NCBI GenBank assembly: GCA_002269645.1
Contig: NIVC01000048.1
Span: forward strand, 62,001 to 126,000
Source: Macrostomum lignano
Lineage: Eukaryota
Reading direction: 5' to 3'
Length of the DNA stretch: 64,000 bases
Made by a program: the position numbers and the translations under genes. The stretch's first letter is position 1; each line of letters opens with the position of its first letter. Below the pieces are notes generated by a model. That model was given only the letters and a program-made list of their open reading frames with translations, was not told the origin of the DNA and searched no databases. Below, in pieces: positions 1,497-26,828 of the stretch.

Positions 1497-1846
1497 TAAA
1501 ACCGGCCCCTGAAATCGCAACCAAACAAGACACTGTCGAACTTAAGTCATCTCATAGAACAGACACCTCAAACTACCCTAAGCTTCCAGGAGTTGAATCA
1601 CCATACATACTGACAAACTCTGAGCTTCTACGCTTTTTATATCTACCTGGAGAGCTAGAGAAGGACACTAAAAGAAGAGCTACAGATCCATACTTCAGCC
1701 TTGATGTACATAAAATAGACAGACATTTTACCTCCGACTCTGGTGACTATTACTTTTTATCTCAGGCCTTTAACCCTAAATCCCCCACGCGGTCATTCAC
1801 TAGAGCTGAACTCCTAGTGATACCAGCTGACACGGAAATTAATTAA
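1497..1846 (+). pseudogene. Polinton retroviral-like integrase, C-terminal fragment (two +1 homopolymer frameshifts)
   Basis: Manual translation KPAPEIATKQDTVEL...LRFLYLPGELEKDTKRRATDPYFSLDVHKI...DYYFLSQAFNPKSPTRSFTRAELLVIPADTEIN*. This matches the YLYxPGELE..RRATDP / YYL...P.R.F.R.ELLV tail I recognise from Polinton integrases. It is absent from the ORF track. Confidence 0.8.
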
Positions 1847-1862
1847 AATATTAAAACAAAAA

Positions 1863-2309
1863 ATGACAAAGATAGAAACCAGAACCATCAGTAAACTCAA
1901 TAAAATCATTGAATCAAAGAAACCAGGTCTTATATCAATTAAAGGTATCAAAGTTAAGTTTGATCCCACACAGCAAATAGTTGAGTGTAATGAACAAAGA
2001 CACAGCATCACAGATGAAAAGTCAGGAGGAATCCTACCATTAGCAGCTCTTATTCCGATCATTGCAGGCGCTGTAAGTGCCGCAGGTGGTGTAGCTGGAG
2101 GTGTAGCAACTGCTGTTAAAGCTGGTAATGATAGAGCACACCAGCTTGAATTGCAAAAGATTGCAAGAGATAAAGGTATAACAATTAAGGCAGGAGATGG
2201 TTGCCCCGATCGTGATGATTGTGAGCATGAAAATTCTGTAAGCAAGTCTGACATTGTCAAAGCCATCATGACACTGCACAATGCTGGGTTTACAATAATG
2301 CGCATGTGA
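1863..2309 (+). CDS. Putative virion core/membrane-active protein with adenovirus pX (mu)-like segment
   Basis: 148 aa; GGILPLAALIPIIAGAVSAAGGVAGGVATAV resembles the adenovirus pX C-terminal GGILPLLIPLIAAAIGAVPGIA segment. A-run precedes the ATG. Confidence 0.7.
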   Translation: MTKIETRTISKLNKIIESKKPGLISIKGIKVKFDPTQQIVECNEQRHSITDEKSGGILPLAALIPIIAGAVSAAGGVAGGVATAVKAGNDRAHQLELQKIARDKGITIKAGDGCPDRDDCEHENSVSKSDIVKAIMTLHNAGFTIMRM

Positions 2310-2432
2310 TGAGGTTTAAAACCCCACTTTATCCAGCTTCATAAACCTAACACTACTTATAGGATGTAGAAACAGTTCAACTTTTCTACCAGGTTGGTCA
2401 CCCTCAATTTTTTTTATATTTTAGAGAAAAAA

Positions 2433-4171
2433 ATGCCAAAAGCCAATCCAGCAAAAGATTTAGTCAACAAATATTTTTCAAAAGGCGTCTCATTTCAAGA
2501 CAAAAGTAATTTACTAAGAGAAGCATGTAAACAAAAGTTTAACACCGACCCTGGTCACCTGGGAAGCTATGAAAAACAGTTGGAAATCATCAATCAATTA
2601 GAATCCAACCAGTATGCGCCTATAAAAAATCCTGCAAAGGAACACCAAGAGAGGAGTCGCAACTTAGTTAACAAATACGAAACTGTCACTGGTGAAAAAG
2701 CAAAGTACCCACAGAATAAGCAGGAACAAGAGAAATTAGAGCAATTAATCCATTTAAAAGAGTCGGAGCTTGCCATTGAAGAGATTAATTTTGCACAGAG
2801 GAAGTTTACAGAACATTACGTAGAGTACACAATCCAAATTAAGGATACCACCGCAAACATCTTCGACTATAAAGACAGCATCCAATCAGTTGTTGATCAC
2901 ACACTCAAAACACGCAAGACCTTTAAACTACAGATATCATTCAAGATTGCGTTTTATATGCCTGCAAAACCCACTGAGCATCTCGAGTATTACATGACAA
3001 CAAAGGCGAAGCCATTCACCCCTACAGACACACTAGATCCTTTCCTTCAAGATGTCACTAAGAAAATTGAAGCGTTTACATCCAGAGGTTCCGGATGGGT
3101 CGTGGGAGGGATTCAAAGAGCAACTGTCATGGTCATGAAATATGACCCACTTAAAGCCTCCTCTTATATAGAGCTCCCGCATAAGCTTGCCGGTAAAAAA
3201 GCTTGCATAAATGTTAAAAATAAAGACAATTGCTGTGCTCTATGGGCAGTTCTTTCTGCACTTCTTCATGATAGTGCCCTTCACCACCCTGAAAGAACCT
3301 CAAATTATCAAAATTATTTCAACTACTATCTCATTGAATGCGAAAAGAAGGGAATCAGGTTTGACAAAGGAGGCTTGGCGATCTCTCAGATCCCAAAGCT
3401 AGAAGAAGTGTTTAATAACAAAATTAGAATCACAGTCTTTGAATGGAGTGAAAAAACTGAGAAAGTTCAACCGGTCAGATGTAGCAAAGACGTTTTAGAT
3501 CCTGAGGGGAAAAGGCGGATTGAAGTGGATCTTCTAGTGATTGGTAATTTACTAGAGGAGGCTCACTATGTTTGGATTAAAGATCTTTCAAGACTCATTC
3601 ACAAGCAGTTGAATAATCATCACGAGGCTGTTGCCATCTGCCGCTTGTGCCTTAAACATTACAGTGGACCTGAACGCTTTGAAAAACTAGCAGAGCATGA
3701 ATTATCATGCGAGGATCACCCAACAAACTGCTCTCTTCCTTCAGCTGAAGAGAAGTATCTCCGGTTTAAGAACTATCATAAGATGGAGAAGCTCCCATTT
3801 GTTGTATATGCTGATTTCGAATGCTCAATCATGCCGGAAACACAAAAACAAACTCCAACTCAAAAACATATCCCTAATTCAGTAGCATATGCCTTTATTA
3901 ATACAGAAGGACTTGTTGAGTATAATTATTTCTTTGGAGAGCAGTGTGTGGAGCAGTTTATTGCCAGAATGTTAGAGTTGCAAAAAGTGATTAGCACCCT
4001 TCAACCTGTTCCAATAATGATGACTGAGGAGGATGAAAGCAATTTCCTATCAGCAACTCATTGTCACATCTGCAGGAAACAGTTAACTAGCACTAATATT
4101 AAAAACCCCACCGTTAGGGACCACTGCCACTTTACTGGGAAATTTAGAGGTGCAGCGCATAACACCTGTAA
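2433..4171 (+). CDS. polB: Protein-primed DNA polymerase B, 5' part (terminal-protein/vOTU-like region, ExoI, EndoVII-like insert); interrupted
   Basis: Motifs GSGWV, SSYIELP, INVKNKDNCCALW, HYVWIKD, FVVYADFEC, CHIC...VRDHCHFTGKFRGAAHNTCN. The frame is broken at 4171 by the Helitron stack. Confidence 0.92.
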
Positions 4172-6661
4172 TCCTATATACTAAAAATGAAATGTGTGTC
4201 TCTGTGAGATAGATTTCAGAAAAAACGGCTAAGCCGATTTTTTCAAACTTGCACCATTCGATCAGAAATTTTCCTGGGACGGTACATGCATCTTGGCTAA
4301 GAAATCGCTGAATGTAAAAGGGATTAAATATTCGAAAAACATGCTTTTTTGCAAAGGTCAAGCCAAATTTTTGACTTGAAATGCATTGTAAGAATGCTAG
4401 AGAAAAAACTAACTGACTGAATTTCAATTCTAATAAAGATTGCATCACAACAAGTTGAAAACAGTGCCGAAGAAATGCACACACGACATGATTGAAATTG
4501 CGTAACCATATTGCTAACTTAAATTGAGACTGATACTGGCTGACTGAGAAATTGATTGTGTCATAACTTTTTACTCTAACTGACTTGCTGAAAGTTTTGA
4601 ATTATAAGGGCGAGAGTTCATGTTCTCCGATTGAAACGAGATAGCCTAGATGCGAACAGACTGGACTGCTATTGTAGTGACCTGGGTTCGAATCTTAGTA
4701 GCGCAAAATGATTTTTTTATTAAAACACCTTAAAAGCACATAATGCTAAATATAAAAGGAGCGCAATGTCAAACATAAAAGAGCCACCATGTCAGATATA
4801 ATAGAGCCACCATGTCAAACGTTAAAGAGCCTCCATGTCGAACATTAAAGAGCTACCATGTCAAACATAAAAGAGCCACCATGTCAGATTTAATAGAGCC
4901 ACCATGTCAAACGTTAAAGAGCCTCCATGTCGAACATTAAAGAGCTACCATGTCAAACATTAAAGAGCCACCATGTCGAACATTAAAGAGCCACCATGCC
5001 AAACATAAAAGAGCCACCATGTCGAACATTAAAGAGCTACCATGCCAAACATAAAAGAGCCACCATGTCAAACGTTAAAGAGCCTCCATGTCAAACATTA
5101 AAGAGCTACCATGTCAAACATTAAAGACCTACCATGTCAAACATAAAAAAGGGCCATCATGCCAAACATAAAAGAGCCACCATGTCGATCATAAAAGAGC
5201 CACCATGTCGAACATATAAGAGCCACCATATCAAACATAAAAAAGCTACCATGTCAAACATAAAAGAGCCACCATGCCAAACATAAAAGAGCCACCATGT
5301 CGAACATTAAAGAGCCACCATGTCGAACATTAAAGAACCACCATGTCAAACATTAAAGACCTACCATGTCAAACATAAAAGAGCCACCATGTCGAACATT
5401 AAAGAGCCACCATGTCGAACATTAAAGAGCCACCATGTCAAACATAGAAGAGCCACCATGTAAAACATATAGGTGACTCCATGTCAAACATTAAAGAGCC
5501 ACCATGTCAAACATTCAAGAGCCACCATGTCAAACGTTAAAAAGCCACCATGTCAAACATTAAAGAGCCACCATGTAAAAATATAGGTGACTCCACGTCA
5601 AACATTAAAGAGCCACCATGCCAAACATTCAAGAGCCACCATGCCAAACATAAAGACCTACCACGTCGAACATAAAAGAGCCACCATGTCAAACATAAAG
5701 GAGGCATCATGTCAAAAATTAAAGAGCCACCATGTCGAACATTAGAGAGCCACCATGCCAAACATAAAAGAGCCACCATGTCGAACATAAAAGAGCCATT
5801 ATGCCAAACATAAAAGAGCCACCATGTCAGATATAATAGAGCCACCATGTCAAACGTTAAAGAGCCTCCATGTCGAACATTAAAGAGCTACCATGTCAAA
5901 CATAAAAGAGCCACCATGTCAGATATAATAGAGCCACCATGTCAAACGTTAAAGAGCCTCCATGTCGAACATTAAAGAGCTACCATGTCAAACATAGAAG
6001 AGCCACCATGTAAAACATATAGGTGACTCCATGTCAAACATTAAAGAGCCACCATGTCAAACATTCAAGAGCCACCATGTCAAACGTTAAAAAGCCACCA
6101 TGTCAAACATTAAAGAGCCACCATGTAAAACATATAGGTGACTCCACGTCAAACATTAAAGAGCCACCATGTCAAACATTCAAGAGCCACCATGTCAAAC
6201 GTTAAAGAGCCACCATGTCGAAAATTAAAGAGCCAACATGCCAAACATTCAAGAGCCACCATGCCAAACATTAAAGACCTACCACGTCGAACATAAAAGA
6301 GCCACCATGCCAAACATAAAAGAGCCACCATGTCGAACATTAAAGAACCACCATGTCGAACATTAAAGAGCCACCATATCGAACATTAAAGAGCCACCAA
6401 GTCAAACATAAAAGAGCTACCATGTAAAACATTCAAGAGCCACAATGTCAAACATAAAGGAGGCATCATGTCAAAAATTAAAGAGCAACCATGTCAAACA
6501 TTAAAGAGCCACCATGTCGAACATTAGAGAGCCACCATGCCAAACATAAAAGAGCCACCATGTCGAACATAAAAGAGCCCTATTTGTTATTTGTCTATTT
6601 GTTATTTGTGAAGAACAAGGATTCTATCCAGATGTCCCCCATCGGGGGCGAAGATTGCTAG
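4172..6661 (+). mobile_element. Non-autonomous Helitron unit 1 (subfamily A)
   Basis: 5' TCCTATATACTAAAAATG; 3' CCCCCATCGGGGG hairpin + CGAAGATTGCTAG; carries the 23-bp satellite A. Confidence 0.88.
4765..6578 (+). repeat. 23-bp minisatellite A (AAAGAGCCACCATGTCAAACATT)
   Basis: Directly visible tandem units of period 23 with variant units. Confidence 0.95.
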
Positions 6662-7284
6662 TCCTATATACTAAAAATGGTCTGTCTGTGTCTATCTATC
6701 TATCTATCTATGTGATCGATTAGAGAAAAAATGGCTGGACCGATTTTGTTCGAACTTGCACTGTTCGATCAGAAATTTTCCCGTGACGGTACATGCATCG
6801 TGGCTAAGAAATTGCTCGATGCTAAAGGCATTAAATATTCGAAAAACATGCTTTTTTGCAAAGGTCAAGCAAACTTTTCGACTTAAAATGCATTGTAAGA
6901 ATGCTAGAGAAAAAACTTACTGGTTGAATTCTGATTCTGAAATAGATTGCATCATAACTGAATTGTAACTCCGACTTGAATTGGAAATGCAGTGTGAAAG
7001 CGTAGCACCAGACTTGATTTAAATTGCGTAACCATATTGTTAACTGATACCGACTGACTGAAAAACTGATTATGTCATAACTGCTTCGTGTGATTTACTC
7101 TATGCTTGGATTTTAAAGTGTTGAATTATATAAGTGCAAAAGTTGATGTTATCAAAACGATGAGAGCTAGCCTAGAGGTGAACAAACTGAACTGCTAAAT
7201 GCAGCGACGATGGTTTGAATTTTCATAGAGTATAATTTTTTAATTAAATCTTTTCAACGTCAGGAAAACTAAAAGACTTTTTAA

Positions 7285-9355
7285 AAAGAAGCGTCATGTA
7301 AAAATCGTAGAAGCGTCATGTAAAAAATCATAGAAGCGTCATGTAAACAATCATAGAAGTGTCATGTAAAAAATCATAGAAGCGTCATGTAAACAATCAT
7401 AGAAGCGCCATGTAAAAAATCATAGAAGCGTCATGTAAACAATCATAGAAGCGTCATGTAAACAATCATAGAAGCGTCATGTAAAAAATCATAGAAGCGT
7501 CATGTAAACAATCATAGAAGCGTCATGTAAACAATCATAGAAGCGTCATGTAAAAAATCATAGAAGCGTCATGTAAACAATCATAGAAGCGCCATGTAAA
7601 CAATCATAGAAGCGTCATTTAAAAAATCATAGAAGCGTCATGTAAACAATCATAGAAGCGTCATGTAAAAAATCATAGAAGCGTCATGTAAACAATCATA
7701 GAAGCGTCATGTAAACAATCATAGAAGCGTCATGTAAACAATCATAGAAGCGTCATGTAAACAATCATAGAAGCGTCATGTAAACAATCATAGAAGCGCC
7801 ATGTAAAAAATCATAGAAGCGTCATGTAAACAATCATAGAAGCGTCATGTAAACAATCATAGAAGCGTCATGTAAAAAATCATAGAAGCGTCATGTAAAC
7901 AATCATAGAAGCGCCATGTAAACAATCATAGAAGCGTCATGTAAACAATCATAGAAGCGTCATGTAAAAAATCATAGAAGCGTCATGTAAACAATCATAG
8001 AAGCGTCATGTAAACAATCATAGAAGCGTCATGTAAACAATCATAGAAGCGTCATTTAAACAATCATAGAAGCGTCATGTAAAAAATCGTAGCAGCGTCA
8101 TGAAAAAATCATAGAAGCGTCATTTAAAAAATCATAGAAGCGTCATGTAAACAATCATAGAAGCGCCATGTAAACAATCATAGAAGCGTCATTTAAAAAA
8201 TCATAGAAGCGTCATGTAAACAATCATAGAAGCGTCATGTAAAAAATCATAGAAGCGTCATGTAAACAATCATAGAAGCGTCATGTAAACAATCATAGAA
8301 GCGTCATGTAAACAATCATAGAAGCGTCATGTAAAAAATCATAGAAGCGTCATGTAAACAATCATAGAAGCGTCATGTAAACAATCATAGAAGCGCCATG
8401 TAAACAATCAAAGAAGCGTCATTTAAACAATCATAGAAGCGTCATTAAAAAAATCGTAGCAGCGTCATGAAAAAATCATAGAAGCGTCATTTAAAAAATC
8501 ATAGAAGCGTCATGTAAACAATCATAGAAGCGCCATGTAAACAATCATAGAAGCGTCATGTAAAAAATCATAGAAGCGTCATGTAAACAATCATAGAAGC
8601 GTCATGTAAAAAATCATAGAAGCGTCATGTAAACAATCATAGAAGCGTCATGTAAACAATCATAGAAGCGTCATGTAAAAATCATAGAAGCGTCATGTAA
8701 ACAATCATAGAAGCGCCATGTAAACAATCATAGAAGCGTCATTTAAAAAATCATAGAAGCGTCATGTAAACAATCATAGAAGCGTCATGTAAACAATCAT
8801 AGAAGCGTCATGTAAACAATCATAGAAGCGTCATGTAAACAATCATAGAAGCGCCATGTAAACAATCATAGAAGCGTCATGTAAACAATCATAGAAGCGT
8901 CATGTAAAAAATCATAGAAGCGTCATGTAAAAAATCATAGAAGCGTCATGTAAACAATCATAGAAGCGTCATGTAAACAATCATAGAAGCGTAATTTAAA
9001 AAATCATAGAAGCGTCATGTAAAAAATCATAGAAGCGCTATGTAAACAATCATAGAAGCGTCATGTAAACAATCATAGAAGCGTCATGTAAACAATCATA
9101 GAAGCGTCATGTAAACAATCATAGAAGCGTCATTTAAAAAATCATAGAAGCGTCATGAAAAAATCATAGAAGCGTCATGTAAACAATCATAGAAGCGTCA
9201 TGTAAACAATCATAGAAGCGTCATGTAAACAATCATAGAAGCGTCATGTAAACAATCATAGAAGCGTCATTTAAAAAATCATAGAAGCGTCATGAAAAAA
9301 TCATAGAAGCGTCATGTAAACAATCATAGAAGCGTCATGTGAAAAATCATCGAAG
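7285..9355 (+). repeat. 23-bp minisatellite B (AATCATAGAAGCGTCATGTAAAC)
   Basis: Highly homogeneous tandem array of period 23. Confidence 0.95.
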
Positions 9356-9797
9356 TCTCATTTAAAAAGTAATGAAAGTGTCATTTAAAATATTAAGAAG
9401 CATCATGGTAGAATAAAAGAAGCGTCATGTCAGACATGAAGGGTGTCATGTAAAAATTAAATGAAGCTATAATGCTGTGCTGGGGAGAATTACTGAGATG
9501 TCAAGGCTCTCAGAGAATAACTTAGATTACGGGGGGGGGGGTTTCTGAGATGTCAAAGCAATAGTCAGAGGCTATTTCAAAGTTCATGTACTTTACTCAA
9601 TTTTTGATTGCATTCTTTGTTGGCTCGCCACGGGGGGCGCTGATAAAAAGCGTAATGTAAAAAATAAAAGAAGCTTCATGTCGAAGTTAAGAGATTCATT
9701 TGGGAATCCCTACGATGTCGAGGCTTGCAGGGAATCACTATAATGCTGTAGTAGTGCTATAATGACTCTCAGAGAGAATTACTGAAATTTCAATGCT

Positions 9798-9858
9798 TTA
9801 GGGTTAGGTTAGGGTTAGGGTTAGGCTAGGGTTAGGGTTAGGCTAGGGTTAGGGTTAG
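9798..9858 (+). repeat. Interstitial telomere-like (TTAGGG)n tract
   Basis: TTAGGG/CTAGGG/TTAGG units. Confidence 0.85.
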
Positions 9859-10721
9859 AAGGTTGACAGATATTTTTAGATTTCCAAGGCTTATTGGGGG
9901 CATTGCTGAGATGTCAATGGGGGAAGTTGATATGTTAAAGCTTGTGGGGGGGAGTTATTGACATGTCAAGGCTTACAAGGTTTGACAGGAGATTTTTTAA
10001 GATTTCAAGGAAATATGTACATGTAGCTTATTAAAAAACGTGTATTGCATTTCTTTGGCTCCCCAACGGGGGGCGTGGATTGCTAGTAAACATACTATAA
10101 TCCTATATCCTTAAAATTCCCATATACTAAAAATGAAAATCTTGCTTGCTTGTAATCGATTAGAGAAAACATGGCTTAACCAATTTTCATGAGACTTGCA
10201 CTGTTCGATCAGAAATTTTCCCGTGACGGTACATGTGTCTTGGCTAAGAATTTGCTCGATGCTAAAGGCATTAAATACTCGAAAAACATGCTTTTTTGCA
10301 AAGGTCAAGCAAACTTTTCAACTTGAAATGCATTGTAAGAATGCTAGAGAAAAAACTGACTGGTTGAATTCTGATTCTGAAATGGATTACATCATAACTG
10401 AATTGTAACTCCAACTTGAATTGCGTCACAGTATTGAAAATGCAGTGTGGAAGCGTAGCACCAGACTTGATTTAGATTGCGTAACCATATTCTCAACTTT
10501 AATTGAGACTGATACTGACTTGCCTGGGAAATTGATTATGTCATAACTGCTTCGTGTGTGAGTGTTTAATTATATAAGTGCTACAATTTCATTTATAAAT
10601 TCGATAATAGCTAGCCTATATGTGAACAGACTGGACTGCAAATGCAGCGACCTGGGTTTGAATCTTAGTAGTGAAAAGTTTTTTATTAAAAGCTTTTATT
10701 AAAGGAAAAATAAAGGACAAA

Positions 10722-11395
10722 AGGCGTCATGTAAAAAAGCATAGAAGCGTCATGTAAAAAAGCATAGAAGCGTCATGTAAAAAATCATAGAAGCGTCATG
10801 TAAAAAATCATAGAAGCGTCATTTAAAAAAATCATAGAAGCGTCATGTAAACAATCATAGAAGCGTCATGTAAAAAGCATAGAAGCGTCATATAAAAAAT
10901 AATAGAAGCGTCATGTAAAAAATCATAGAAGCGTCATGTAAAAATCATAGAAGCGTCATGTAAAAATCATAGAAGCGTCATGTAAAAAATCATATAAGCG
11001 TCATGTAAACAATCATAGAAGCGTCATGTAAAAAGCATAGAAGCGTCATGTAAAAAGCATAGAAGTGTCATTTAAAAAATCATAGAAGCGTCATGTAAAA
11101 AATCATAGAAGCGTCATGTAAACAATCATAGAAGCGTCATGTAAAAAATCACTGAAGCGTCATGTAAACCATCATAGAAGCGTAATGTAAAAAATCATAG
11201 AAGCGTCATCTAAAAATCATAGAAGTGTCATGTAAACAATCATAGAAGCGTCATTTAAAAAAATCATAGAAGCGTCATGTAAACCATCATAGAAGTGTCA
11301 TGTAAACAATCATAGAAGCGTCATGTAAACAATCATAGAAGCGTCATGTAAACAATCATCGAAGCGTCATCTAAAAGTCATAGAAGCGTCATTAA
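10722..11395 (+). repeat. 23-bp minisatellite B, shorter array
   Basis: Same unit as 7285-9355. Confidence 0.93.
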
Positions 11396-12296: not shown

Positions 12297-12387
12297 TTAG
12301 GGTTATGTTAGGGTTAGGGCTAGGTTAGGTTAGGGCTAGGGGCTAGGGTTAGGGTTAGGGTTAGGGTTAGGCTAGGGTTAGGGTTAG
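12297..12387 (+). repeat. Interstitial telomere-like (TTAGGG)n tract
   Basis: TTAGGG/CTAGGG units; a degenerate copy lies at ~11878-11925. Confidence 0.85.
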
Positions 12388-12613
12388 AAGATTGACAGAT
12401 ATTTTTAGATTTCCAAGGCTTATTGGGGGCATTGCTGAGATGTCAAGGGGGGAAGTTGATATGTTAAAGCTTGTGGGGGGGGGAAATTACTGACATGTCA
12501 AGGCTTACAAGTTTTGACAGGAGATTTTTTAAGATTTCAAGGATACATGTAGCTTATTTAAAAAACGTGTATTGCATTTCTTTGGCTCCCCAACGGGGGG
12601 CGTAGATTGCTAG

Positions 12614-17253: not shown

Positions 17254-19349
17254 TTTAAAGCTAAAATCGAACATTCATGATCTAACAATATTTTGTCACA
17301 ACGCAAAGAACTATGACATGCATTTAATAGTTGAAAAAATCGGTATGATTCCAGACATACACCTTGACTGCATCGCAGAGAACAAGGAGAAGTTTAAGTG
17401 TGTTGATATTAAACAGGATAATTCGGGTACAGGTAAAATAAGACTGAAGGATTCATATCAATTTCTAGCTGCCAGTCTAGACGAACTAAGCAAGAATCTA
17501 AAAGATGAACAATGTACATATACAAAGATGTTTGCAAGTAAAATTTACAACAGTGATGAATCATTTAAACTCCTGAGAACCAAAGGCTTCTACCCCTATG
17601 AAAATATTACTGGGTATTACGGATTTGAAGAAGGTTTACCACCACAGGAGAAGTTCTTTTCAAAGCTAACAGACTCTGGAATCTCTGACAAAGACTATGA
17701 GCACGCGAAGCATGTCTATAATTACTTTAATTGTCAAAACTTCTTCCAGTATCACCTGCTTTACCTCTTCACAGATGTGTTTCTGCTGGCCGATGTGTTT
17801 GAAACCTTCAGATATACCTGGTACACAGCATATGGCCTCGATCCAGAACATTATGTGTCTCTGCCTGCCACTAGCTGGGAATCTTTGCTTAAAATGAAAG
17901 GGGATCAAGATCCAGATTGGTACATTGAACTTCTTACAGACATTGACATGTACAATTTTGTCGAATCGTCAAAGCGAGGGGGAATCTCAATTTGCGTTAA
18001 CAGGTATGCAAAAGCAAACAATCCCTACATTGAATCTTACAATAAGGAGCAGCCCTCAAACTACATTACTTACTTGGACGCTAATAATCTCTACGGGTGG
18101 GCGATGAGTCAAGATCTTCCAGTTAGAGATTTTCGATGGCTACCTTCATCAGAATTTAAATGGGACTTTTCATTGGCTGCCATTTATGAGGTTGATGTTT
18201 ACATTCCACCAGAGCTTCACGACTATTTCTCTGACTTTCCACCCTTCCCAGAGAACATCAAGTGCCCGAAAATAATCGAAACTCCCAATAGAACTTGGCA
18301 CCTGTCAGGAACAGAAAAAGAACATACAGAGAAACTAACACAGAATCTAAACAACAAGACACGTTACAAAATCCATTACAAACTGCTTCAGTATTTTATC
18401 TCACTTGGTTGTAGGGTCACCAAAGTTCACAGGGCTCTTACATTTACAGAGGAAGCGTGGATGAAACCCTACGTTGATAAGAATACCCAGTTTAGGACCA
18501 AAGCAACCAACGACTTTGACAAGAACCTCTTTAAGTTGGCCAACAACTCTGTCTATGGCAAGACTCTTGAGAATGAGAGGAAAAGAACAAACCTGAAACT
18601 TGTTACCTCATCAGAGCCTGCTGTTATTCAGGCAAATATGTCAAAACCAACATTCAAAGAACTCCATATCTTTAATAGCTACCTAGGTGTGATCATATTT
18701 TTACAAAACCAAGGTGACGCTGCGCAAGCCGATCTATACAGGTGTCACTGTACTCGACGAATCAAAACGTCTGATGTACCAATTCTTCTATGGCATGAAG
18801 CAGCAGTACAAGGATAAAATGAAACTCTTGTACACTGACACAGACAGTTTTATTATGGACATTCAAACAGAAGACATTTATCAGGACATGCTGCAGCAAA
18901 AAGATTTGTTTGACTTGTCTGAGTATGATGAATCTTTCAGGACACAGAATGGCGATCAAGTGTTTGACGCCACTAACAAGAAAGTGATTGGGAAAATGAA
19001 GGACGAGATTGCTGGTGACATAATCACTGAATTCATTGGGTTGAGAGCAAAGTCCTATTTTGTAAAATGTGAGTCGTCAGACCCAATTAAAAAATCAAAG
19101 GGAATTCTTAAACGCGTGGTTAGGAAGGAAATTAATGAAGTTGAATACAGAGACGCCTTGAATTGCAACAAAAAGACATCACATGAGTTCTCAAAGCTAC
19201 AATCTAAAAACCATATTATTCACACAATTCAGCAAAAGAAGATTGGACTGTCAGGTGCAGATAACAAGAGATTCATTTTTGATGACAATATTAACAGTCT
19301 ACCGTTCGGGCACTGGAGATTGGGTTTAGGAGGTGGAAGTTGGGTTTAG
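17254..19349 (+). CDS. polB: Protein-primed DNA polymerase B, 3' part (ExoII/III and polymerase domain); +1 frameshift at ~18700
   Basis: HNAKNYDMH, YLFTDVFLLADVFE, motif A YLDANNLYGWAM, motif B KLANNSVYGK, motif C LYTDTDS, KVIGKMKDE. An extra T in the T5 run at 18698-18702 shifts GVIIF to YKTKVTLRKPIY. Confidence 0.93.
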
Positions 19350-19402: not shown

Positions 19403-19803
19403 ATGACAACAAATAACTTTCTTGGAGATTTGGCTAACGAACTGGAAATCCCAAACTTTAGAGGAATATTTATGAGGGACACTCTGCCTGATTTTCCTCT
19501 AAGAAAAGAATGTGGCATCATGAACTTTGACACCACTGATAAGCCAGGATCTCATTGGGTTTGCTGGGTGATTGATCCCGATCGCAAGCACAAGTGTTAT
19601 TACTTCGATAGCTATGGGACGGCAGTACCAGAAGAGCTAATAAATTATATGAAGGGAAAAATAATAAAAACATTTACCACTCAGACTTTATTCTTCAAGG
19701 TCTTAGCAGTGATATTTGCGGTGAGCTGTGCATGACTGTTTTGTATGCAATGACCAAAACACGAAAGACCTACAAGGAAATTATTCTTGGCTGTGTTTCA
19801 TAG
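19403..19803 (+). CDS. Adenain-like cysteine protease (-1 frameshift at A run ~19657-19661)
   Basis: GSHWVCW (catalytic His) and YYFDSYG; after the frameshift NIYHSDFILQGLSSDICGELC (Gln and catalytic Cys); stop at 19801-19803. Confidence 0.9.
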
Positions 19804-19807: not shown

Positions 19808-20464
19808 TCATTGTGCATTTCTCGTTGTCCTTTTTACCGAATTTCTTGCCGCATAATGTTGAAAAACTTTCTCGAGTTCATTTTTCAGCTGACTCATGTC
19901 ATCAGTACCGACCATGTTCAAGTTCATTCGAATTGGTTGTTCATAAAGATCCTGAATGGTTTTGAACTCATCCTCTGAAATGAACTTATCCTCGATTGCC
20001 CTTGAAATGTACCCTATGATTGAAGTGTGCACTCCTTTCTCTTTTACTTGCTTCTCCTGTAGCTGCTTTAGTTTTTTTCGCCTGTTTCGCGCTAATGCTC
20101 CAGTAATTGCTGAAATAAGTCCACATGCAGCACCTACTGAACCAAGTGGAATTGCGATTGGGGCTGTGATGGCTGGCAACACTGAGACAGCTGCAGCAGA
20201 CCCAGTTAGAACAGACACAGTTCCTAGAATCATATTGCTGTAGTCGAAAAATTTACAGTGGCTGTCATAGCGCTTAATTTTCTTTGTGTTGTGGAAAATA
20301 TTTTTTTCAAGATCATCGCGCATTTTTTGAATCTCCACCAGTCGAAACTGTTGAGAGTTACAAGTAATGACGGGGTAGAGTTTTTGTTGCTCATATTGGG
20401 GTGCACTAGGTGCACTAGGTGTTGTGGGAGCATTCTGATCATAAAGAGAATTTTGAGCATCTAT
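19808..20464 (-). CDS. Polinton conserved membrane protein (two hydrophobic helices + ISRAIEDKFISEDEF motif)
   Basis: The open frame extends upstream of the track ORF to 20464 (…QKLYPVITCNSQQFRLVEIQKMRDDLEK…). An ATA sits after AAAA where an ATG is expected. Confidence 0.7.
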   Translation of the reverse strand: MDAQNSLYDQNAPTTPSAPSAPQYEQQKLYPVITCNSQQFRLVEIQKMRDDLEKNIFHNTKKIKRYDSHCKFFDYSNMILGTVSVLTGSAAAVSVLPAITAPIAIPLGSVGAACGLISAITGALARNRRKKLKQLQEKQVKEKGVHTSIIGYISRAIEDKFISEDEFKTIQDLYEQPIRMNLNMVGTDDMSQLKNELEKVFQHYAARNSVKRTTRNAQ

Positions 20465-20573
20465 TTTTAGGGAATTTTAAAAAAAAAATCGGCAACTAGT
20501 TGGTGGTGGTTAGATTTGTTTTACGTTTGGTTGCTTTGTCTGCAATCACGGCAACGGGTCCCTTCGAATCTGC

Positions 20574-21308
20574 CTATTCATTGTCTGTGAGCTCCATTCT
20601 ACGCCTGATCTCAAACAAGTCGGTTGGATCACTTATTTCCCTTGTGGTCTGTGGTGCCTCTTCAGCGTCAATGTTTTTGAGATTATGCAAGCGTTCAAGA
20701 CGACCGATTCTTCTCACCGATTTCTGCCATTCGGTAAAAAATAAATCTACAAAGACTTTATTTGCAGTAATTCTTACTTTGATTTGATCATGCAACGCTG
20801 TTGACTGATTCATGAACTCTTCTAAATTCCTCACTTTACATGTGTTGGTTGCGACGTTTTTTTTAATTCTATCATGCAACGCTGTTGACTGGTTCATGAA
20901 CTCTTCAAAATTCCTCACTTTAACTGTGTTTGTGAAAACTCCTTCTTCAAGAATGCGCATCCGCCTATCAATGGAGTTTCTCAGAAGATTAATTGTCGAT
21001 GCTAAATTTGTTCTTAAGCCGTTGATTTGCGAGACCGCCGAAGTTATTTCTGACCTTAGTTCATTAGTTGCGTTTAACAACGGCACATAAAGCTTATCAC
21101 TTTCAAACTTCTACCTAGCTACTTTAAGCCTGAGATCTTCCATGTTTATTTGCAACTGGTGCATGGAGCGCTCTAATTGTTTCAGTCTGTTTTTATTCAG
21201 TTTGATCTCTGGGATCTCTTCATCAGTGTTAATGTAGCGCTTATCAAGGAAGGAAGTTGTGAGAGTGCTGTTGCCTGTAGTTGACTCACCTGCAAAATTA
21301 ATAGACAT
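20574..21308 (-). pseudogene. Coiled-coil protein with 28-aa internal duplication; one in-frame TAG at 21111-21113
   Basis: Track ORFs 21111-21308 and 20574-21086 are in the same frame (VAR*KFESDKLYVPLL). An 84-bp direct repeat encodes NTxKVRNxEEFMNQSTALHD twice. Confidence 0.7.
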
Positions 21309-21324: not shown

Positions 21325-22125
21325 TTAAAGTAAAATTCTTTTCTCCTTATTAATCATGACAAACTGATAGGGTTGGTTCCACTTTTCATAGCATATGTTA
21401 ACAAATTCCTCCTGTGATATTGTTCTGTTAGAGTTCTTAGCTGGATATGTAATGTGAGCTGGGGCAATGACCTCATTATAAAATCGTTTCAGTCGATCTT
21501 GTGGTATGGTTGGGAAAGGAGAATCAAATTACAGTTACCTCTAATTGTTTTATTTGGCAGTTCAAACCAGTTTTGGGCAATGTAAATAACATTGCAATTA
21601 TTATGTCTACCCCGGGTGAAATAATTTTCTATCTGTTTCTGGGGACTGGTCATGCAGTCATCAAAGACAATCAGGTGCTTTCTCCCCTTTTCTAGTTCAT
21701 CAGGTTGAGGTAAGAGTTTAGTTTTAGGATCTATCTGTGGATCTCCATAAGTGAAAACTTTAATGTTTTGCCATTTTTCATTGTCTGGGATGTGCTTTGC
21801 GTATTCAGTGGCTACAACTTCCGGGTTGCTGTTGAGGTCTTTTTGATGTCTAAAACATTGAATAATATCTTCCTTGTTGAGTTTGTTCTGTAGGCCCGCT
21901 ACTAGCATTTTATACTCATCTTGATACAGAGTGGGTGAATAGATATGTAGTGTGTCATAATCGAGGAATCCAGGTCTGAGGAGCATGTTAAAAAACTCTG
22001 AAGGTTTTCCCTGACCCAGATGAGCCAACAACAATGCATCGGAAGTGCCCTGGAATTATCTCGTTGTGAGCAAATTTTATCTGATTGCGTGTCCAGTGGG
22101 GATGAAAGTCGTTTGTGAAGTCCAT
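21325..22125 (-). CDS. A32/FtsK-like genome-packaging ATPase (two homopolymer frameshifts)
   Basis: ATG at 22125 gives ...FRCIVVGSSGSGKTFRVF (Walker A); shift at A6 21990-21995; HLIVFDDC (Walker B) and FTRGRHNNCNVIYIAQ; second shift at 21515-21517 to ...SQEEFVNICYEKWNQPYQFVMINKEKRILL*. Confidence 0.92.
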
Positions 22126-22323: not shown

Positions 22324-22704
22324 TTAGTCAAATTTAAAACCGCCTCCTTTTTTATATTCAGCTCTCATCTTTGCGTAGATGGCTGGATCGACACTATCTG
22401 CACTCGGTGCAAGGGGTTGAATATCTGGTATTGATTTCCGGGTTTCATTAACCGTATCTTTAATTTTTTTGGCTGCTGTGGCTACACTGCCAGCCGCTTC
22501 GGCAACGTTCTTGATGTTCTCTTTGTTCTCTCCAATGACCTTAAAAATCTTGGCCCCCTGAGCGATCAAATCGGCAAGGCCATTCCCAGAGCGTTCTTTT
22601 CTTGGATAGTGGCCTGCAGGGAAAAGTCCAGATCCACGTTTAATAAGATTAAGTTCCTCTTTGTCATAGTATTTGTCAATGTCTTTTTCGAAAATAAGTG
22701 GCAT
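22324..22704 (-). CDS. Putative virion core protein with GxG protease sites and amphipathic helix
   Basis: Probable start MPLIFEK (AAAA before ATG); KRGSGL, RSGNGLADLIAQGAKIFKVI, KKGGGF. Confidence 0.6.
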   Translation of the reverse strand: MPLIFEKDIDKYYDKEELNLIKRGSGLFPAGHYPRKERSGNGLADLIAQGAKIFKVIGENKENIKNVAEAAGSVATAAKKIKDTVNETRKSIPDIQPLAPSADSVDPAIYAKMRAEYKKGGGFKFD

Positions 22705-22720: not shown

Positions 22721-23917
22721 TTATTTTTTGTTGAACCGCGAAAGCAGAAGCTCTCTCGCCCTCTTATCGATGTATTTTCTCTCAAGCATTTTATTGAGGA
22801 TGTTGACAAATTCTTTTCTATTCTCGTCTTTCATTCCGGTCTTTGCCGCTCCTAGAAGAACCGCTACTCGCTTGTAGATTTCAGAAATTCCTTTTCCAGT
22901 TGAGGGCGGTTGGTCTTGAGGTTGTGGAGTTGGTTGGGCTTGTGGCTGCTGGGGAGGTGATGCAAAAGACTGCTCACTTTCAGAGATGGAACTGTCATGT
23001 GGTGCCTGTCTTTGTTGAGGTGTGAAAACTCTTTGCTTGATTCTGTTCATTCGATCTGGAGAGTGTTGTTCTAAGTGTTGCCAATCTGTTGGGTTTTGTT
23101 TCTTATATTCAGCTACTTGAGTCGGATCTGCATTTTCCAGTTGCCTGAGTACTTCTGTGAAATGTTGCTGCTGCTGTGGTTGTGGTTGTTGTTGCTGTTG
23201 TTGTTGTTGTTCTAGATATTTTATGACTTCCGCCTGATCTGGCAAATCGAACCATTGTTTAAAGTGCTTGTACTTTTTGAATCTAGTCAGGTTGACACCG
23301 TTATCATACATAAGTCTCAGGACTTCTGGGGCCTTTAGTATTTCTATATCTCTAGCAAGAGCAAAAGTCACCAGATCTCTATAGTTCTTTAGCTGTTTGT
23401 CCGAGATTCTCTCTTGGTTCTTGGTCATAAAAGTCAGTAAGGTTTCTGTGAAAGGAATGCTCTTAGTTTCCGAGCCTTTGACAACAGAAATATGTTTCTT
23501 ATTTATGTCGATATAATATTCCACTGGTTCATTATAAATGTTTTTTCTCCACATACTTATTCCAAATACATATTTCCCATCATGTTCGACACGCTCTACT
23601 GGTCCAAAAATGTTATCTGTCACTTTTAGTTGTGATTGATGTGGTTGTGGTTGTTGTGGTTGCGGCTGTATCTGTGGTGCTTCTGGAATTTTGCCCAAAA
23701 CCTTTTGCACTTGGGTTTCCTGTATGTCGTCGATAGTTTCTTTGACCTGATCAATATTTTTCTTAGCTTCTCCATACCCGGGTTTATGAAACTCTGTGGC
23801 TGCTTGGACAAACTCATTGTAGGATTGTTGCTCCTTATTTATTAGCCCGGTAACTCGTTTCTCTGCTTGTGCTAGCTTCTCCAATTCAGATATCTGCTGT
23901 GTACTTTTCCGCTTCAT
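22721..23917 (-). CDS. Polinton conserved (putative core) protein, Gln/Pro-rich
   Basis: 398-aa intact ORF. The C-terminal STGKGISEIYKRVAVLLGAAKTG...EFVNILNKML resembles the G.G...RL.LL.G...AG...E...I...L domain seen in Polinton proteins. Confidence 0.7.
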   Translation of the reverse strand: MKRKSTQQISELEKLAQAEKRVTGLINKEQQSYNEFVQAATEFHKPGYGEAKKNIDQVKETIDDIQETQVQKVLGKIPEAPQIQPQPQQPQPHQSQLKVTDNIFGPVERVEHDGKYVFGISMWRKNIYNEPVEYYIDINKKHISVVKGSETKSIPFTETLLTFMTKNQERISDKQLKNYRDLVTFALARDIEILKAPEVLRLMYDNGVNLTRFKKYKHFKQWFDLPDQAEVIKYLEQQQQQQQQPQPQQQQHFTEVLRQLENADPTQVAEYKKQNPTDWQHLEQHSPDRMNRIKQRVFTPQQRQAPHDSSISESEQSFASPPQQPQAQPTPQPQDQPPSTGKGISEIYKRVAVLLGAAKTGMKDENRKEFVNILNKMLERKYIDKRARELLLSRFNKK

Positions 23918-23948
23918 TTCTTATTTTATTTTAATTTTTAGTTAAAAA

Positions 23949-25235
23949 ATGAACGACCCACTGACACCAGTTTTCTACAAAATTAACAAGCCTATTTTGA
24001 GTGATGATAGCACAATCAAAGCGACTCAGGTAAGAGTTCCCAGTCAGGAAAATCAGAATGAAACTAATCTTGGTCCTGGTCAAACACTGACATTTACATA
24101 CAATGGATGTTCGTCTTTGGTTAGTGTGCACAGTCTTAAGAGCGGATTCCATATGACATTTCAATTCAAGACAAAGGGTGGTGCGGATGCGGCTCGTGCT
24201 AACGTTGACAAGCATGATGCGGATGTGGCTCTGATCAGTAAATTTTGGGCGTACATGTTCAAGGAGTTTAGTGTATCGAATGGGAGCACAGAGTTGGAGC
24301 GAATCGCCAACTTTGGAATTGTCTATGACGCTCATTGTTTGATCGAGAATTCTGATTTTATTCAGTTGGGAAGTGGTGCGGGTTTTATTGCAGACGAAAA
24401 AGAAGGAGATATCAATGACAGTGGCTATAAAAATAGGAAGAAGAGATACAACTGTGCATTGCAAGGTGCAGATGATGCTGCTAAGAACCCGCTGTATCGG
24501 TCTGTTGATGTATTTGTACCATTGAGATTCATGAGTGGATTCTGTAATACATTTAATCGACTGACTAGTAACTTTAGCTACACATTTAGGATGACTAGAG
24601 TTGATCGCAGTAGAGTGTTGTGGACTGGGGCGGACCACACTGGGATGGAGGTGAAGCTAACCGGAATCGAGCTGTATTTGGAAGTCATTGAGCCAAAGAC
24701 TGCACTAAAAGCTGATTATCTCAAGGCAATAGAGAAGGACATTGATGTTGCATACACGGCCTACATGTGTCGAGATGAGCGAAACGAAACTAGAACAAAC
24801 ATCTGCATTAAAGAGGGATCATGCAGCAATCCAAGGTATATTATTATTAACATGAGAAACCCAAATAGCATTATACGCTACATGCATGGAGACGTGCGGT
24901 CCATTCAGCATGAAATCAGTGATAATCTTTACCCTGCACTGCCACAAAATGGAGATTTCAGTCAGAACAAGATTAGCAAATTTTACAACGAGTTGGTCGA
25001 CTTGGCTGTGAAAGAGAACAATGGAATTGCTATCACTGCTCTTCAATATGGAACTCTATATCCGATGTTTGGCGCTGATGTGTCTGCCAGACAAATGCCT
25101 ACTGATAACAGCCCTGTGAATATCGTGAATAACATTGAGAGGACTGCCGCAACACCTGTGGACTTGTACATTATCTATGCATTTGAGAGGAAGGTGAAGC
25201 TTAACATGATCAACAATTCATCCAGTAAAGTTTAA
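23949..25235 (+). CDS. Major capsid protein (double jelly-roll, PY)
   Basis: 428 aa, intact, directly upstream of the penton. N-terminal ILSDDST...P...N.G...TFT and C-terminal YPMFGADVS...LYIIYAFERK fit Polinton MCP patterns; beta-rich composition. Confidence 0.82.
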   Translation: MNDPLTPVFYKINKPILSDDSTIKATQVRVPSQENQNETNLGPGQTLTFTYNGCSSLVSVHSLKSGFHMTFQFKTKGGADAARANVDKHDADVALISKFWAYMFKEFSVSNGSTELERIANFGIVYDAHCLIENSDFIQLGSGAGFIADEKEGDINDSGYKNRKKRYNCALQGADDAAKNPLYRSVDVFVPLRFMSGFCNTFNRLTSNFSYTFRMTRVDRSRVLWTGADHTGMEVKLTGIELYLEVIEPKTALKADYLKAIEKDIDVAYTAYMCRDERNETRTNICIKEGSCSNPRYIIINMRNPNSIIRYMHGDVRSIQHEISDNLYPALPQNGDFSQNKISKFYNELVDLAVKENNGIAITALQYGTLYPMFGADVSARQMPTDNSPVNIVNNIERTAATPVDLYIIYAFERKVKLNMINNSSSKV

Positions 25236-25256
25236 ATATTTTTTTAGGACAAAAAA

Positions 25257-26120
25257 ATGGAAGCTATAGCCGAAAGACTAAATAACATTGTTTCACACTC
25301 TAAGGAGAGCATTCCTATTACAATAACCGGGCGAATTAATGACTCAAACGGGATATTTGTTGAAAAATTAGAGCAGGCGATTCGCCTGGATCCAGGTGCT
25401 AAATACCATGTCTATCTTAACGACTTCACTGGTTGGTCAAACGTTCCCAATGTGATGGCAGCAAATAATAAGTTTTATTACAAATGGAAAGGTGCAGCAG
25501 CAGACCCTGTGGTATTCCATGTGAGCACGCAAAGTGTGGATACCTACAATAACTTTCTAGAAAATGTCTTTACTAAGAGAGGCCATTTTGAGACACCTGA
25601 TGCGAGTAAGCCAGAGAAGAAACTGTTCCCTGTCAAACTAACCTATGATCTCACTGTAATGAGAGTGGTCATGCAAGTTCACAAAGATGCGGAGGTTGAG
25701 TTTAAAGATGACACTTGGTATAGGGAACTGGGATTCGAGAAGAAAGTTTATAAGGCAGAATCCGCGGCGCGGACCGCCACTCAAGCATCGGGGACTGTTA
25801 GAATGGTCCGGGAAAGTGTAAGCGGTTTGTTCTTAGCACCCAATATTGCAGACATTGTAAAGGGTTTGAATATTCTAATCAGAAGCAATCTCAGTCTTGA
25901 TTGGGTATTTAAGGGAAAGCGAACGAATATTTTGTACAATATCTCCAACTCTGTAGCTGGAGGACAGATGGTGGTAGAGAAACCAAATCCAGTGAAAAGA
26001 GTTGTATTGAGTAATAAGGAGATTCACGAGATTGTGCTACAGTTTGAGACTGAAGATGGGATGGGTGTTGATTTCAACGGTGAAGAGTTTGTATTGACGT
26101 TGATCATTGAGAGAATGTAA
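25257..26120 (+). CDS. Minor capsid protein (penton, single jelly-roll, PX)
   Basis: NVPNVMAANNKFYY, ILIRSNL, NILYNI...EKPNP, IHEIVLQFETEDGMGVDFNGEEFVLTLII: typical penton motifs. Confidence 0.88.
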   Translation: MEAIAERLNNIVSHSKESIPITITGRINDSNGIFVEKLEQAIRLDPGAKYHVYLNDFTGWSNVPNVMAANNKFYYKWKGAAADPVVFHVSTQSVDTYNNFLENVFTKRGHFETPDASKPEKKLFPVKLTYDLTVMRVVMQVHKDAEVEFKDDTWYRELGFEKKVYKAESAARTATQASGTVRMVRESVSGLFLAPNIADIVKGLNILIRSNLSLDWVFKGKRTNILYNISNSVAGGQMVVEKPNPVKRVVLSNKEIHEIVLQFETEDGMGVDFNGEEFVLTLIIERM

Positions 26121-26124
26121 GAAA

Positions 26125-26361
26125 TCACAATTGCTTAATGATTTCTGCAAAGTTATAGTAGCTGTCGTAATCGTTAATGACTACTCCATACTTATGAAAC
26201 CAGTGTCTTTGGAGAGCTAGATTAATATTAGGGACATTGATATCAACGTCGGGCCAATATTTTCTCATGTACTCGCTGCATTCAAGTTTGCATCGGTACT
26301 TGGATTTGTACAATGGATTAGGCTGAGTATAATAAGAACCTGGAGAGACAACTGGAAACAT
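26125..26361 (-). CDS. Small Polinton hypothetical protein (78 aa)
   Basis: A-run then ATG (MFPVVSPG...); converges on the penton stop. Confidence 0.5.
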   Translation of the reverse strand: MFPVVSPGSYYTQPNPLYKSKYRCKLECSEYMRKYWPDVDINVPNINLALQRHWFHKYGVVINDYDSYYNFAEIIKQL

Positions 26362-26519
26362 TTTTTTATTGAGAATTTTATTTTTTTTCAAAGGGTAAGG
26401 ACCCTGCGCTGATAATTTAAAGTCTTAGGGATTTGGTTTCATGTTGCGGATTGAATGTGGGGAGAAGAATTCAGATTATTTTCTGATTGTTTCGAAGATG
26501 CTATGGGTGGATTTCGAGC

Positions 26520-26828
26520 TGTTATGCTCAGAGCATAAACCCTCAGAGCATAACAGTAGGACACCTGTTATGCTCTGATTCTGTCAGGGATAAAATGGAT
26601 GGATTTAATGGGATTATGGAGGACGTTTTGTGAGCGAGTGCGACCCCCCTTTTTTCTGATTCTGTCGGGGATAATATGGATGGATTTAATGGGATTATGG
26701 AGGACGTTTTGTGAGCGAGTGCGACCCCCCTTTTTTTCTGATTCTGTCGGGGATAATATGGATGGATTTAATGGGATTATGGAGGACGTGAAAAATTTTG
26801 TCCCAGAAGCCCCCTCATGCCTTCTACT
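26520..26828. repeat. Putative right terminal-repeat region of the Polinton: hairpins + 81-bp tandem repeats
   Basis: Perfect 14-bp stem at 26543-26578; 81/82-bp units start at 26575, 26656 and 26738; AGTAG-like terminus. Confidence 0.7.

What the first reader, a model, noticed from the sequence alone, without database searches (positions are those of the whole stretch)
1497..26828. Near-complete, divergent endogenous adintovirus/Polinton genome in an invertebrate host
After removing the 13,082-bp Helitron stack, about 12.2 kb of viral DNA remains. It has a full replication and morphogenesis set (pPolB ~1277 aa, protease, ATPase, MCP, penton, three putative core proteins, membrane protein), and MCP, penton and the core genes are uninterrupted. 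It looks virion-competent in origin and may be an unclassified lineage if the host is a flatworm (inference).
Basis: partly seen in the sequence, partly recalled or inferred. Interest (0 to 1): 0.72.

Follow-up and report, generated by a model that had tools for sequence, protein, structure and literature searches.

The report
Broken Polinton virus copy in animal
This is a damaged copy of a Polinton, a known kind of DNA virus that inserts itself into animal chromosomes; it belongs to a young family with many copies and an unusually distant capsid protein, but this copy is cut short and broken.

Summary
The element is real. It is an integrated Polinton (Maverick, adintovirus type). Exactly 13,082 bp of Helitron-like units interrupt the polymerase, leaving 12,250 bp. 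The major capsid protein folds as a double jelly roll (pLDDT 92.9; Z 25 to PBCV-1). Penton, ATPase, protease and a protein-X core gene are supported by profiles.

It is less complete than stated. No left terminal repeat is present. Polymerase, protease, ATPase and one more gene are broken, so this copy is dead. Contigs from 4 runs show a young multi-copy family whose other copies differ at those breaks.

The host was not established. Flatworm Polintons with full capsid sets were already catalogued in 2014. Verdict: new member of a known kind; modest interest.

The parts
1..1495 (-). Flank: 5' part of a GC-rich retroelement (SAP domain, CCCH finger, gag-like frames) that abuts and cuts the integrase; DIRS/Ngaro-like by recalled resemblance
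   Evidence: SAP 49.7 bits, zf-CCCH weak; GC 0.60 against 0.395 for the viral part; the family label is recalled, not tested
1496..1846 (+). C-terminal third of an rve integrase; catalytic core absent; no chromodomain
   Evidence: 6 homologues of 326-346 aa, all PF00665, 58-74% identical; tblastn matches start at residue 218 or later, and nowhere else in the window; Pfam finds only rve in 2 of 2 homologues scanned
1863..2309 (+). Protein-X-like core protein, 148 aa, open, with GG motifs
   Evidence: PF05829 30.1 bits, above the cut-off of 25; GG motifs listed
2433..4171 (+). pPolB, N-terminal part (terminal-protein and OTU-like region, exonuclease I motif, start of the endonuclease VII finger)
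   Evidence: 30-35% to full-length Polinton pPolBs; Endonuclease_7 below cut-off; OTU Cys/His motifs read by eye
4172..17253 (+). Stack of five head-to-tail non-coding Helitron-like units with 23-bp, 18-bp and TTAGGG arrays, inserted in pPolB
   Evidence: Unit ends at 6661, 10086, 12613, 12963 and 17253; TC...CTAG termini; mutual similarity 73-90%; arrays; 3' hairpins predicted but not beyond shuffles, z -0.5 to -1.8
17254..19349 (+). pPolB, catalytic part; frame change near 18,700
   Evidence: PF03175 58.6 bits; 39-46% to the best 120 hits; polymerase motifs A, B and C read
19403..19803 (+). Adenain/Ulp1-type maturation protease; frame change near 19,660
   Evidence: Profile of 8 Polinton proteases hits both pieces, E 5e-32 and 7e-7; Pfam C5/C48 below cut-off
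19808..20476 (-). Conserved Polinton hydrophobic (membrane-type) protein; first ATG lies inside the homologous region, so probably damaged at its start
   Evidence: Profile of 3 homologues E 1.4e-16; homology begins at residue 25 of the 217-aa stretch, first Met at residue 48
20574..21308 (-). Coiled-coil ORF of unknown role, split by an in-frame stop at 21111-21113; 84-bp internal duplication
   Evidence: only sub-threshold coiled-coil Pfam matches
21325..22125 (-). A32/FtsK-type packaging ATPase; frame changes near 21,990 and 21,510
   Evidence: Profile of 12 Polinton ATPases hits two pieces, E 8.5e-33 and 3e-6; Pox_A32 weak on the Walker A piece
22324..22704 (-). Small open ORF, 126 aa, with GG motifs; possible core or membrane-lytic protein (inference)
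   Evidence: No significant match; motifs
22721..23917 (-). Open ORF, 398 aa, Gln/Pro-rich; role unassigned
   Evidence: No significant match
23949..25235 (+). [quoted passage not shown]
   Evidence: pLDDT 92.9, pTM 0.91 with a 109-row alignment; Sputnik MCP TM 0.64; PBCV-1 Z 25.0, rmsd 3.6, 343 aligned; 101 of 109 alignment members match PF21738
25257..26120 (+). Penton / minor capsid protein (Polinton PX family), 287 aa, open
   Evidence: Profile of 9 Polinton ORFs, E 2.3e-23 over residues 16-288, sole hit among 340 ORFs; 20-24% identity in alignment A4; fold not modelled
26121..26828 (+). Right terminal region with an 81-bp tandem repeat, ending CTTCTACT; probable right terminal inverted repeat
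   Evidence: Repeat 26574-26789; summed contig depth falls 9- to 50-fold after the bin 26730-27099 in 4 of 4 runs; the end resembles the (ACT)2 motif of vertebrate Mavericks

Best explanation
A defective integrated copy of a Polinton (Maverick; class Polintoviricetes) from a young, multi-copy family in an animal genome. How the family works (from established knowledge of Polintons, not shown here): the linear genome with terminal inverted repeats is copied by its own protein-primed polymerase, whose N-terminal terminal-protein domain primes at the ends and is released by the OTU-like domain; the rve integrase inserts new copies in the chromosome; MCP trimers and penton vertices can form an icosahedral particle that the ATPase fills and the protease matures by cutting core proteins at GG motifs. 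What happened to this copy (shown unless marked): a retroelement now abuts the middle of the integrase gene, and the left arm is outside the window or lost (which of the two is unknown); Helitron-like units piled up inside the polymerase; small lesions broke the polymerase, protease, ATPase and one further ORF. The copy cannot move or package itself. Its open capsid genes most likely reflect young age (about 1-3% from sister contigs) rather than host use (inference).
For: Gene set. Polymerase halves are colinear with one reference across the insert. Integrase truncation. Right end: depth step and AG/CT-type terminus. Multi-copy family: 20 of 24 listed runs, one organism, 8 studies, hold 54-65% of the sampled words; run X1 lays 14,044 contigs, of them 5,187 at 99%+, 4,719 at 95-99, 2,990 at 90-95 and 1,148 under 90. 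The longest viral contigs in X15 and X17 differ from the window by about 0.5-3% (table 8). At three listed sites the share of X1 depth that agrees with the window is 80-104, close to the 82.5 of a flank contig, as expected for changes private to one copy (table 3; inference). Most Mavericks in vertebrate genomes are likewise degraded (PMC8097293).
Against: The left terminal repeat and the target-site duplication were not seen, so the two structural hallmarks rest on the right end alone. The host genome was not available, so copy number and the existence of unbroken copies are inferred from short contigs, whose depth is not a copy number. At the in-frame stop and at many other listed sites no contig carried the window's letter, so some lesions may be assembly errors. 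The penton fold was not modelled, and a PDB sequence search with its alignment found only chance hits.
Confidence: 0.88

Rival explanations
1. The copy is essentially whole: the left arm lies beyond the inserted retroelement, outside the window, and the small breaks are assembly errors, so only the two insertions disable it.
For: All four frame changes lie in or beside single-base runs. Contigs differ from the window at three of them in 4 of 4 runs, at the protease break in 3 of 4, and at the in-frame stop in 4 of 4. The flanking element runs off the window's left edge.
Against: At the ATPase break near 21,990 a remainder of about 81 depth units in X1 agrees with the window, close to single-copy flank depth. 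Even without the small breaks, the two insertions split the integrase and the polymerase.
Confidence: 0.3
2. The family now spreads only inside the genome as a self-synthesising transposon; the capsid module is a passenger that is being lost.
For: A joint skipping 24274-25399 (parts of MCP and penton) is seen in 4 of 4 runs, and a joint from 19364 to 26786 in X1. No relative of MCP or penton was found in IMG/VR.
Against: MCP keeps a complete, confident double jelly-roll model. Relatives from independent collections at 69-77% and 43% identity keep open frames. The deletion joints have low depth (229 and 165 in X1).
Confidence: 0.3
3. An integrase-free adenovirus-like (MELD) or polinton-like virus that was captured by accident.
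Against: An rve integrase tail sits in the same orientation directly before protein X and pPolB. The polymerase groups with animal Polinton polymerases.
Confidence: 0.03
4. Two unrelated fragments brought together by the Helitron stack.
For: The halves are 13 kb apart, and no laid contig was tested across the stack.
Against: The polymerase stretches on either side end and resume 10-13 residues apart in the same references; both halves have the same GC, 0.395 and 0.399.
Confidence: 0.02

Closest known systems
Alpha adintoviruses (Adintoviridae, renamed Eupolintoviridae, order Amphintovirales; PMC8502044, PMC12451622), e.g. Corynactis coral adintovirus
   Same: Polymerase class (39% identity over the core to Corynactis PolB), rve integrase, adenain, FtsK/A32 ATPase, hexon, penton, protein-X domain.
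   Different: Polymerase on a long branch (1.18 against a median of 0.069) with no supported group. No PLA2 domain in the window. MCP falls outside the group holding the MCPs of three PLA2-bearing elements and Hydra. Integrase lacks the chromodomain. Gene order differs from L006, L007 and L016.
Schmidtea mediterranea Polintons of Repbase (Polinton-1_SM, Polinton-2_SM; PMC4028283 Table S1)
   Different: No sequence comparison was possible (sequence file not readable), so relatedness is unknown; the host of this window is not established.
Vertebrate Mavericks (PMC8097293)
   Same: Core gene set, genes on both strands, ACT-type right end, mostly degraded copies.
   Different: Different gene order; the end is CTTCTACT, not a perfect (ACT)2; fails their definition of 'intact'.
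Unnamed environmental relatives P0001-P0010 (MCP) and P0159-P0164 (integrase)
   Same: MCP 69-77% and 41-43% identical, integrase tail 58-74% identical.

Membership tests
Polinton/Maverick (Polintoviricetes) | Protein-primed family B polymerase | tested here: met
   PF03175 above cut-off; colinear with full-length pPolBs; gene broken in this copy
Polinton/Maverick (Polintoviricetes) | Retrovirus-like (rve) integrase gene | tested here: met
   C-terminal third present, 58-74% to six PF00665 proteins; catalytic core not in the window
Polinton/Maverick (Polintoviricetes) | Double jelly-roll MCP | tested here: met
Polinton/Maverick (Polintoviricetes) | Penton (PX family) near the MCP gene | tested here: met
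   Profile E 2.3e-23; adjacent to MCP. Homology to Polinton ORFs is shown; the label of those ORFs as pentons rests on position and recalled motifs
Polinton/Maverick (Polintoviricetes) | Single jelly-roll fold of the penton | not tested
   Both fold jobs went to the MCP; PDB sequence search gave only chance hits
Polinton/Maverick (Polintoviricetes) | Packaging ATPase and adenain-like protease | tested here: met
   both genes broken in this copy
Polinton/Maverick (Polintoviricetes) | Terminal inverted repeats | tested here: inconclusive
   No pairing of 901-2400 with 26001-28000, but the left end is cut off; the right end is defined by a depth step and terminal motif
Polinton/Maverick (Polintoviricetes) | 5-8 bp target-site duplication | not testable with these tools
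   Left end outside the window; no genome held
'Intact' Maverick as defined in PMC8097293 | All core ORFs open, both terminal repeats and target-site duplication | tested here: not met
   Integrase, polymerase, protease and ATPase broken
Eupolintoviridae (former Adintoviridae), Alpha class | Alpha-class (pfam03175) PolB with N-terminal OTU domain | tested here: met
   PF03175; 39% to Corynactis PolB, shown in the Alpha panel of Fig. S2; OTU Cys/His read by eye only
Eupolintoviridae (former Adintoviridae), Alpha class | PLA2X gene of the Alpha virion module | tested here: inconclusive
   A PLA2 profile matches only the protein-X part of 1863-2309; the missing left arm could hold it
Eupolintoviridae, Beta virion module | GasderminX and cupiennin-like genes | tested here: inconclusive
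   No gasdermin match among 22 ORFs scanned; cupiennin likeness of 22324-22704 is a recalled resemblance with no match
Eupolintoviridae | Hexon clusters with the Mayetiola or Terrapene reference | not testable with these tools
   Neither reference was returned; 1 of 30 MCP relatives looked up bore an organism name (Hydra vulgaris), outside this clade
Eupolintoviridae | Animal host | tested here: inconclusive
   Flanks hold an ankyrin/TRP-like gene and an F5/8 lectin domain; named polymerase hits are all animal; the organism name is coded
Helitron (insert 4172-17253) | TC...CTRR termini, insertion between A and T, 3' hairpin | tested here: inconclusive
   Termini and site met; hairpins not beyond shuffles in 5 of 5 ends; no Rep-helicase gene in the stack

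The most novel reading that the evidence does not exclude
Organism A, an animal sequenced by at least eight studies, carries a young and still active Polinton lineage of family rank. Its capsid clade has no named member, and it pairs an Alpha-type polymerase with a chromodomain-less integrase and a virion module of neither described class. Unbroken sister copies still make particles, and the close relatives in environmental collections are the same lineage circulating in the wild. It would be a natural animal Polinton whose virions can be observed in its own host.
Probability: 0.15. Interest if true: 0.75.

Novelty: new member of a known kind. Interest (0 to 1): 0.33.

Why it matters
By itself a broken Polinton copy is ordinary: one survey counted 20,702 integrase-linked pPolB1 genes in 960 genomes, with multiple copies in 17 of 23 invertebrate phyla (10.1101/2023.08.22.554363, section 8). 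Two things lift it a little. The capsid belongs to a clade with no named member among those looked up, which adds a branch to Polintoviricetes taxonomy. And the family looks young and numerous in an organism that many groups sequence, while Maverick particles had not been observed as of PMC8097293 (abstract). If sister copies are expressed, that open question could be approached by observation in this host.

Tried and rejected
Single-sequence fold of the MCP failed (pLDDT 30.9); the alignment-based fold replaced it. PDB sequence searches with MCP and penton profiles gave only chance hits. No genome was held, so other copies could not be read. No MCP relative in IMG/VR (0 of 11 and 0 of 44 candidate stretches), none in JGI metagenomes (0 of 83), and no penton relative in IMG/VR (0 of 11); these scans need exact words, so absence is weak. 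Expression: no RNA holder listed. Two runs guessed to be RNA hold the element, but in X17 the ratio of viral to flank contig depth (49-204 against 4.9) is of the same order as in DNA run X1 (1,608 at a one-contig site against 82.5), so carried-over DNA explains it; no claim either way. Lower depth over 20.4-23.8 kb in all four runs was not used, because contig depth cannot rank genes. Atlas searches gave only unnamed viral-type clusters (penton 0.98, membrane protein 0.94, both below the recognition threshold). Assigning 22324-22704 and 22721-23917 as core proteins found no support. The first IQ-TREE run timed out; the trees used are FastTree and quick IQ-TREE LG+G4, without bootstrap. Rows left out: MCP hits outside 370-520 aa (97 rows kept); 41 hand-picked hits plus 6 locus ORFs and the window MCP. 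The polymerase search covered only proteins of 841-2400 aa, so closer relatives on short contigs could not appear. Earlier findings: 3 look-ups, nothing returned. Host: Macrostomum was my recalled guess and served only as a search term; it was not tested.
Full report
Observation. The stretch 1497-26828 holds two AT-rich, ORF-dense halves (GC 0.395 and 0.399) around a non-coding insert. The insert runs 4172-17253, exactly the 13,082 bp stated, and leaves 12,250 bp. It is made of five head-to-tail units that end in CTAG, four of them starting TC, with long 23-bp, 18-bp and TTAGGG arrays. It sits between an A and a T. These are Helitron marks by recalled convention. The predicted 3' hairpins did not fold better than shuffles in 5 of 5 ends, and no Rep-helicase frame is present, so the label rests on termini and site.

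Genes. The three in-frame polymerase stretches, each compared on its own, total 1,274 aa and match consecutive parts of the Corynactis adintovirus PolB and of seven other references. PF03175 scores above cut-off. The MCP folded badly alone but well with 109 rows (pLDDT 92.9, pTM 0.91). The 16 best of 48,161 solved chains are all double jelly-roll capsid or scaffold proteins (top Z 25.0, rmsd 3.6, 343 aligned; first other fold Z 7.8). Foldseek agrees, and 101 of 109 alignment members match PF21738. Profiles built from Polinton loci found through the polymerase (14 loci) hit the penton ORF at E 2.3e-23 as the only hit among 340 window ORFs, and also the ATPase, protease and membrane-protein ORFs. 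The ORF at 1863 carries the adenovirus protein-X domain above cut-off. The ORFs at 22324-22704 and 22721-23917 matched nothing; calling them core proteins is inference.

The frame 1478-1846 is the tail of an rve integrase. Six proteins among 233 candidates match it, all with PF00665. Against the whole window they align only from residue 218 or later, starting at 1496; the rve core lies at residues 65-156. Left of 1496 the GC rises to 0.60 and the minus strand carries a SAP domain and a CCCH finger, which I read from memory as the start of a DIRS/Ngaro-like retroelement. No inverted repeat pairs the two ends. The right end is real: summed contig depth falls 9- to 50-fold after the bin 26730-27099 in 4 of 4 runs, and the sequence ends CTTCTACT at 26828, close to the (ACT)2 end reported for Mavericks (PMC8097293, passages). 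Besides the two insertions, the polymerase has a frame change near 18,700, the protease near 19,660 and the ATPase near 21,990 and 21,510; ORF 20574-21308 has an in-frame stop; and the membrane-protein frame lacks an ATG before its homologous part. This copy is a fossil.

The family. 20 of 24 listed runs, all organism A, from 8 studies, hold 54-65% of the sampled words; one of them may be the window's own source. X1 gave 14,044 contigs over a range of likeness, which fits many copies; contig depth is not a copy number. The longest viral contigs of X15 and X17 differ from the window by about 0.5-3%. Contigs differ from the window at three of the frame changes and at the stop in 4 of 4 runs, and at the protease break in 3 of 4 (a minority of depth in two). 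So these breaks are not shared by the family. Some are probably private to this copy (a remainder near single-flank depth agrees with the window at several sites); others may be assembly errors (no agreeing contig). The main X15 contig ends at 17255, at the insert's edge, a weak hint that most copies lack the insert. Joints show copies with internal deletions (24274-25399 in 4 of 4 runs). Nothing here shows expression.

Placement. The polymerase core is 39-46% identical to the 120 best full-length hits, of 4,298 passing among 8,000 scored. All 14 hits with an organism name are animal: corals, an anemone, molluscs, snakes and a butterfly. In a FastTree of 121 rows it sits on a long branch with no supported group. 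Corynactis is in the Alpha panel of Starrett's Fig. S2. The MCP has 9 close relatives among 4,943 candidates (43-77%) and 485 distant ones. In a 97-row tree it lies in a 9-row clade (support 100) within a 28-row group (98). With MCPs of three PLA2-bearing elements and a Hydra protein added, those fall elsewhere. Of 30 MCP relatives looked up, one bore an organism name, outside the clade. The Mayetiola and Terrapene exemplars were not available, so genus or family rank is untested. Mixed polymerase and virion modules are already described (PMC8502044; 10.1101/2023.08.22.554363).

Mechanism. Shown: the gene set, the folds and homologies above, the lesions and the multi-copy state. From established knowledge: protein-primed replication with a terminal-protein domain cut off by a vOTU domain (PMC11161782, passages), integrase-driven insertion, and a capsid of MCP and penton filled by the ATPase and matured by the protease (PMC4028283, passages). 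Inferred: the family spread recently in the germ line, and this copy was then disabled by two insertions and small lesions. Whether sister copies make particles is open.

Host and novelty. The host could not be determined: no genome was held and names are coded. An animal is likely from the flanks and the polymerase hits. A flatworm host would not make it new: Table S1 of PMC4028283 lists four Schmidtea Polintons, two with MCP, penton, ATPase and protease. I found no description of this lineage in these searches, seen as listings only: Macrostomum + Polinton (1 paper, unrelated title), adintovirus + flatworm (0), Macrostomum + Maverick (2, unrelated titles), Polinton/Schmidtea/Platyhelminthes and planarian + Maverick + Polinton + transposable elements (7). 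Repbase and most subscription papers are not covered.

Papers seen: PMC8502044, parts 1-3 of 6 of the text, part 1 of its supplement and a term search of the held, cut text, which does not include Table S1. PMC4028283, passages and Table S1 rows; its sequence file was not readable. 10.1101/2023.08.22.554363, passages and section 8; its extended tables, not seen, list pPolB-bearing genomes and could already include this host. PMC11161782, PMC12451622, PMC8097293 and PMC10175614, passages only.

Verdict. A real, divergent but dead copy of a known kind of element. New member of a known kind; interest 0.33. The live question is the family, not this copy.

Noticed in passing
window 28250-30099: Small LTR element with two identical 402-bp LTRs (TG...CA), flanked by TATC on both sides and without a long ORF: a very recent non-autonomous insertion.
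   Followed up: partly
window 32216-35320, minus strand: Long ankyrin-repeat frame followed by membrane segments, TRP-channel-like by recall, with an in-frame stop at 34874-34876 and few or no introns.
   Followed up: no
window 27094-27498: F5/8 type C lectin domain 270 bp from the element's right end; joints suggest several similar copies in the genome.
   Followed up: no
window 52850-56068: 3-kb array of the same 18-bp unit found in the Helitron stack, on the opposite strand, with the same adjoining sequence: probably another member of that Helitron family; it creates stop-free frames of up to 1,030 codons that are not genes.
   Followed up: partly
window 9798-9858 and 12297-12387: Degenerate TTAGGG arrays inside two Helitron-like units.
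   Followed up: no
window 24274-25399 and 19364-26786: Joints in run contigs point to internally deleted sister copies, one lacking parts of MCP and penton (4 of 4 runs), one possibly lacking the whole virion module (X1 only; orientation not given).
   Followed up: no
L001, L003 (integrase and polymerase tail to tail) and L004: Integrases of the same chromodomain-less type (31-43% identity) occur next to pPolB in another arrangement; in L004 the neighbouring frame did not match this polymerase.
   Followed up: partly
window 1858-1865, 2427-2435, 19398-19405, 23943-23951, 25251-25259: Most viral ORFs start with an A-run directly before the ATG, often after a T-run: a shared start context.
   Followed up: no
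window 38072-39059: (AGAC)n microsatellite of 247 units.
   Followed up: no
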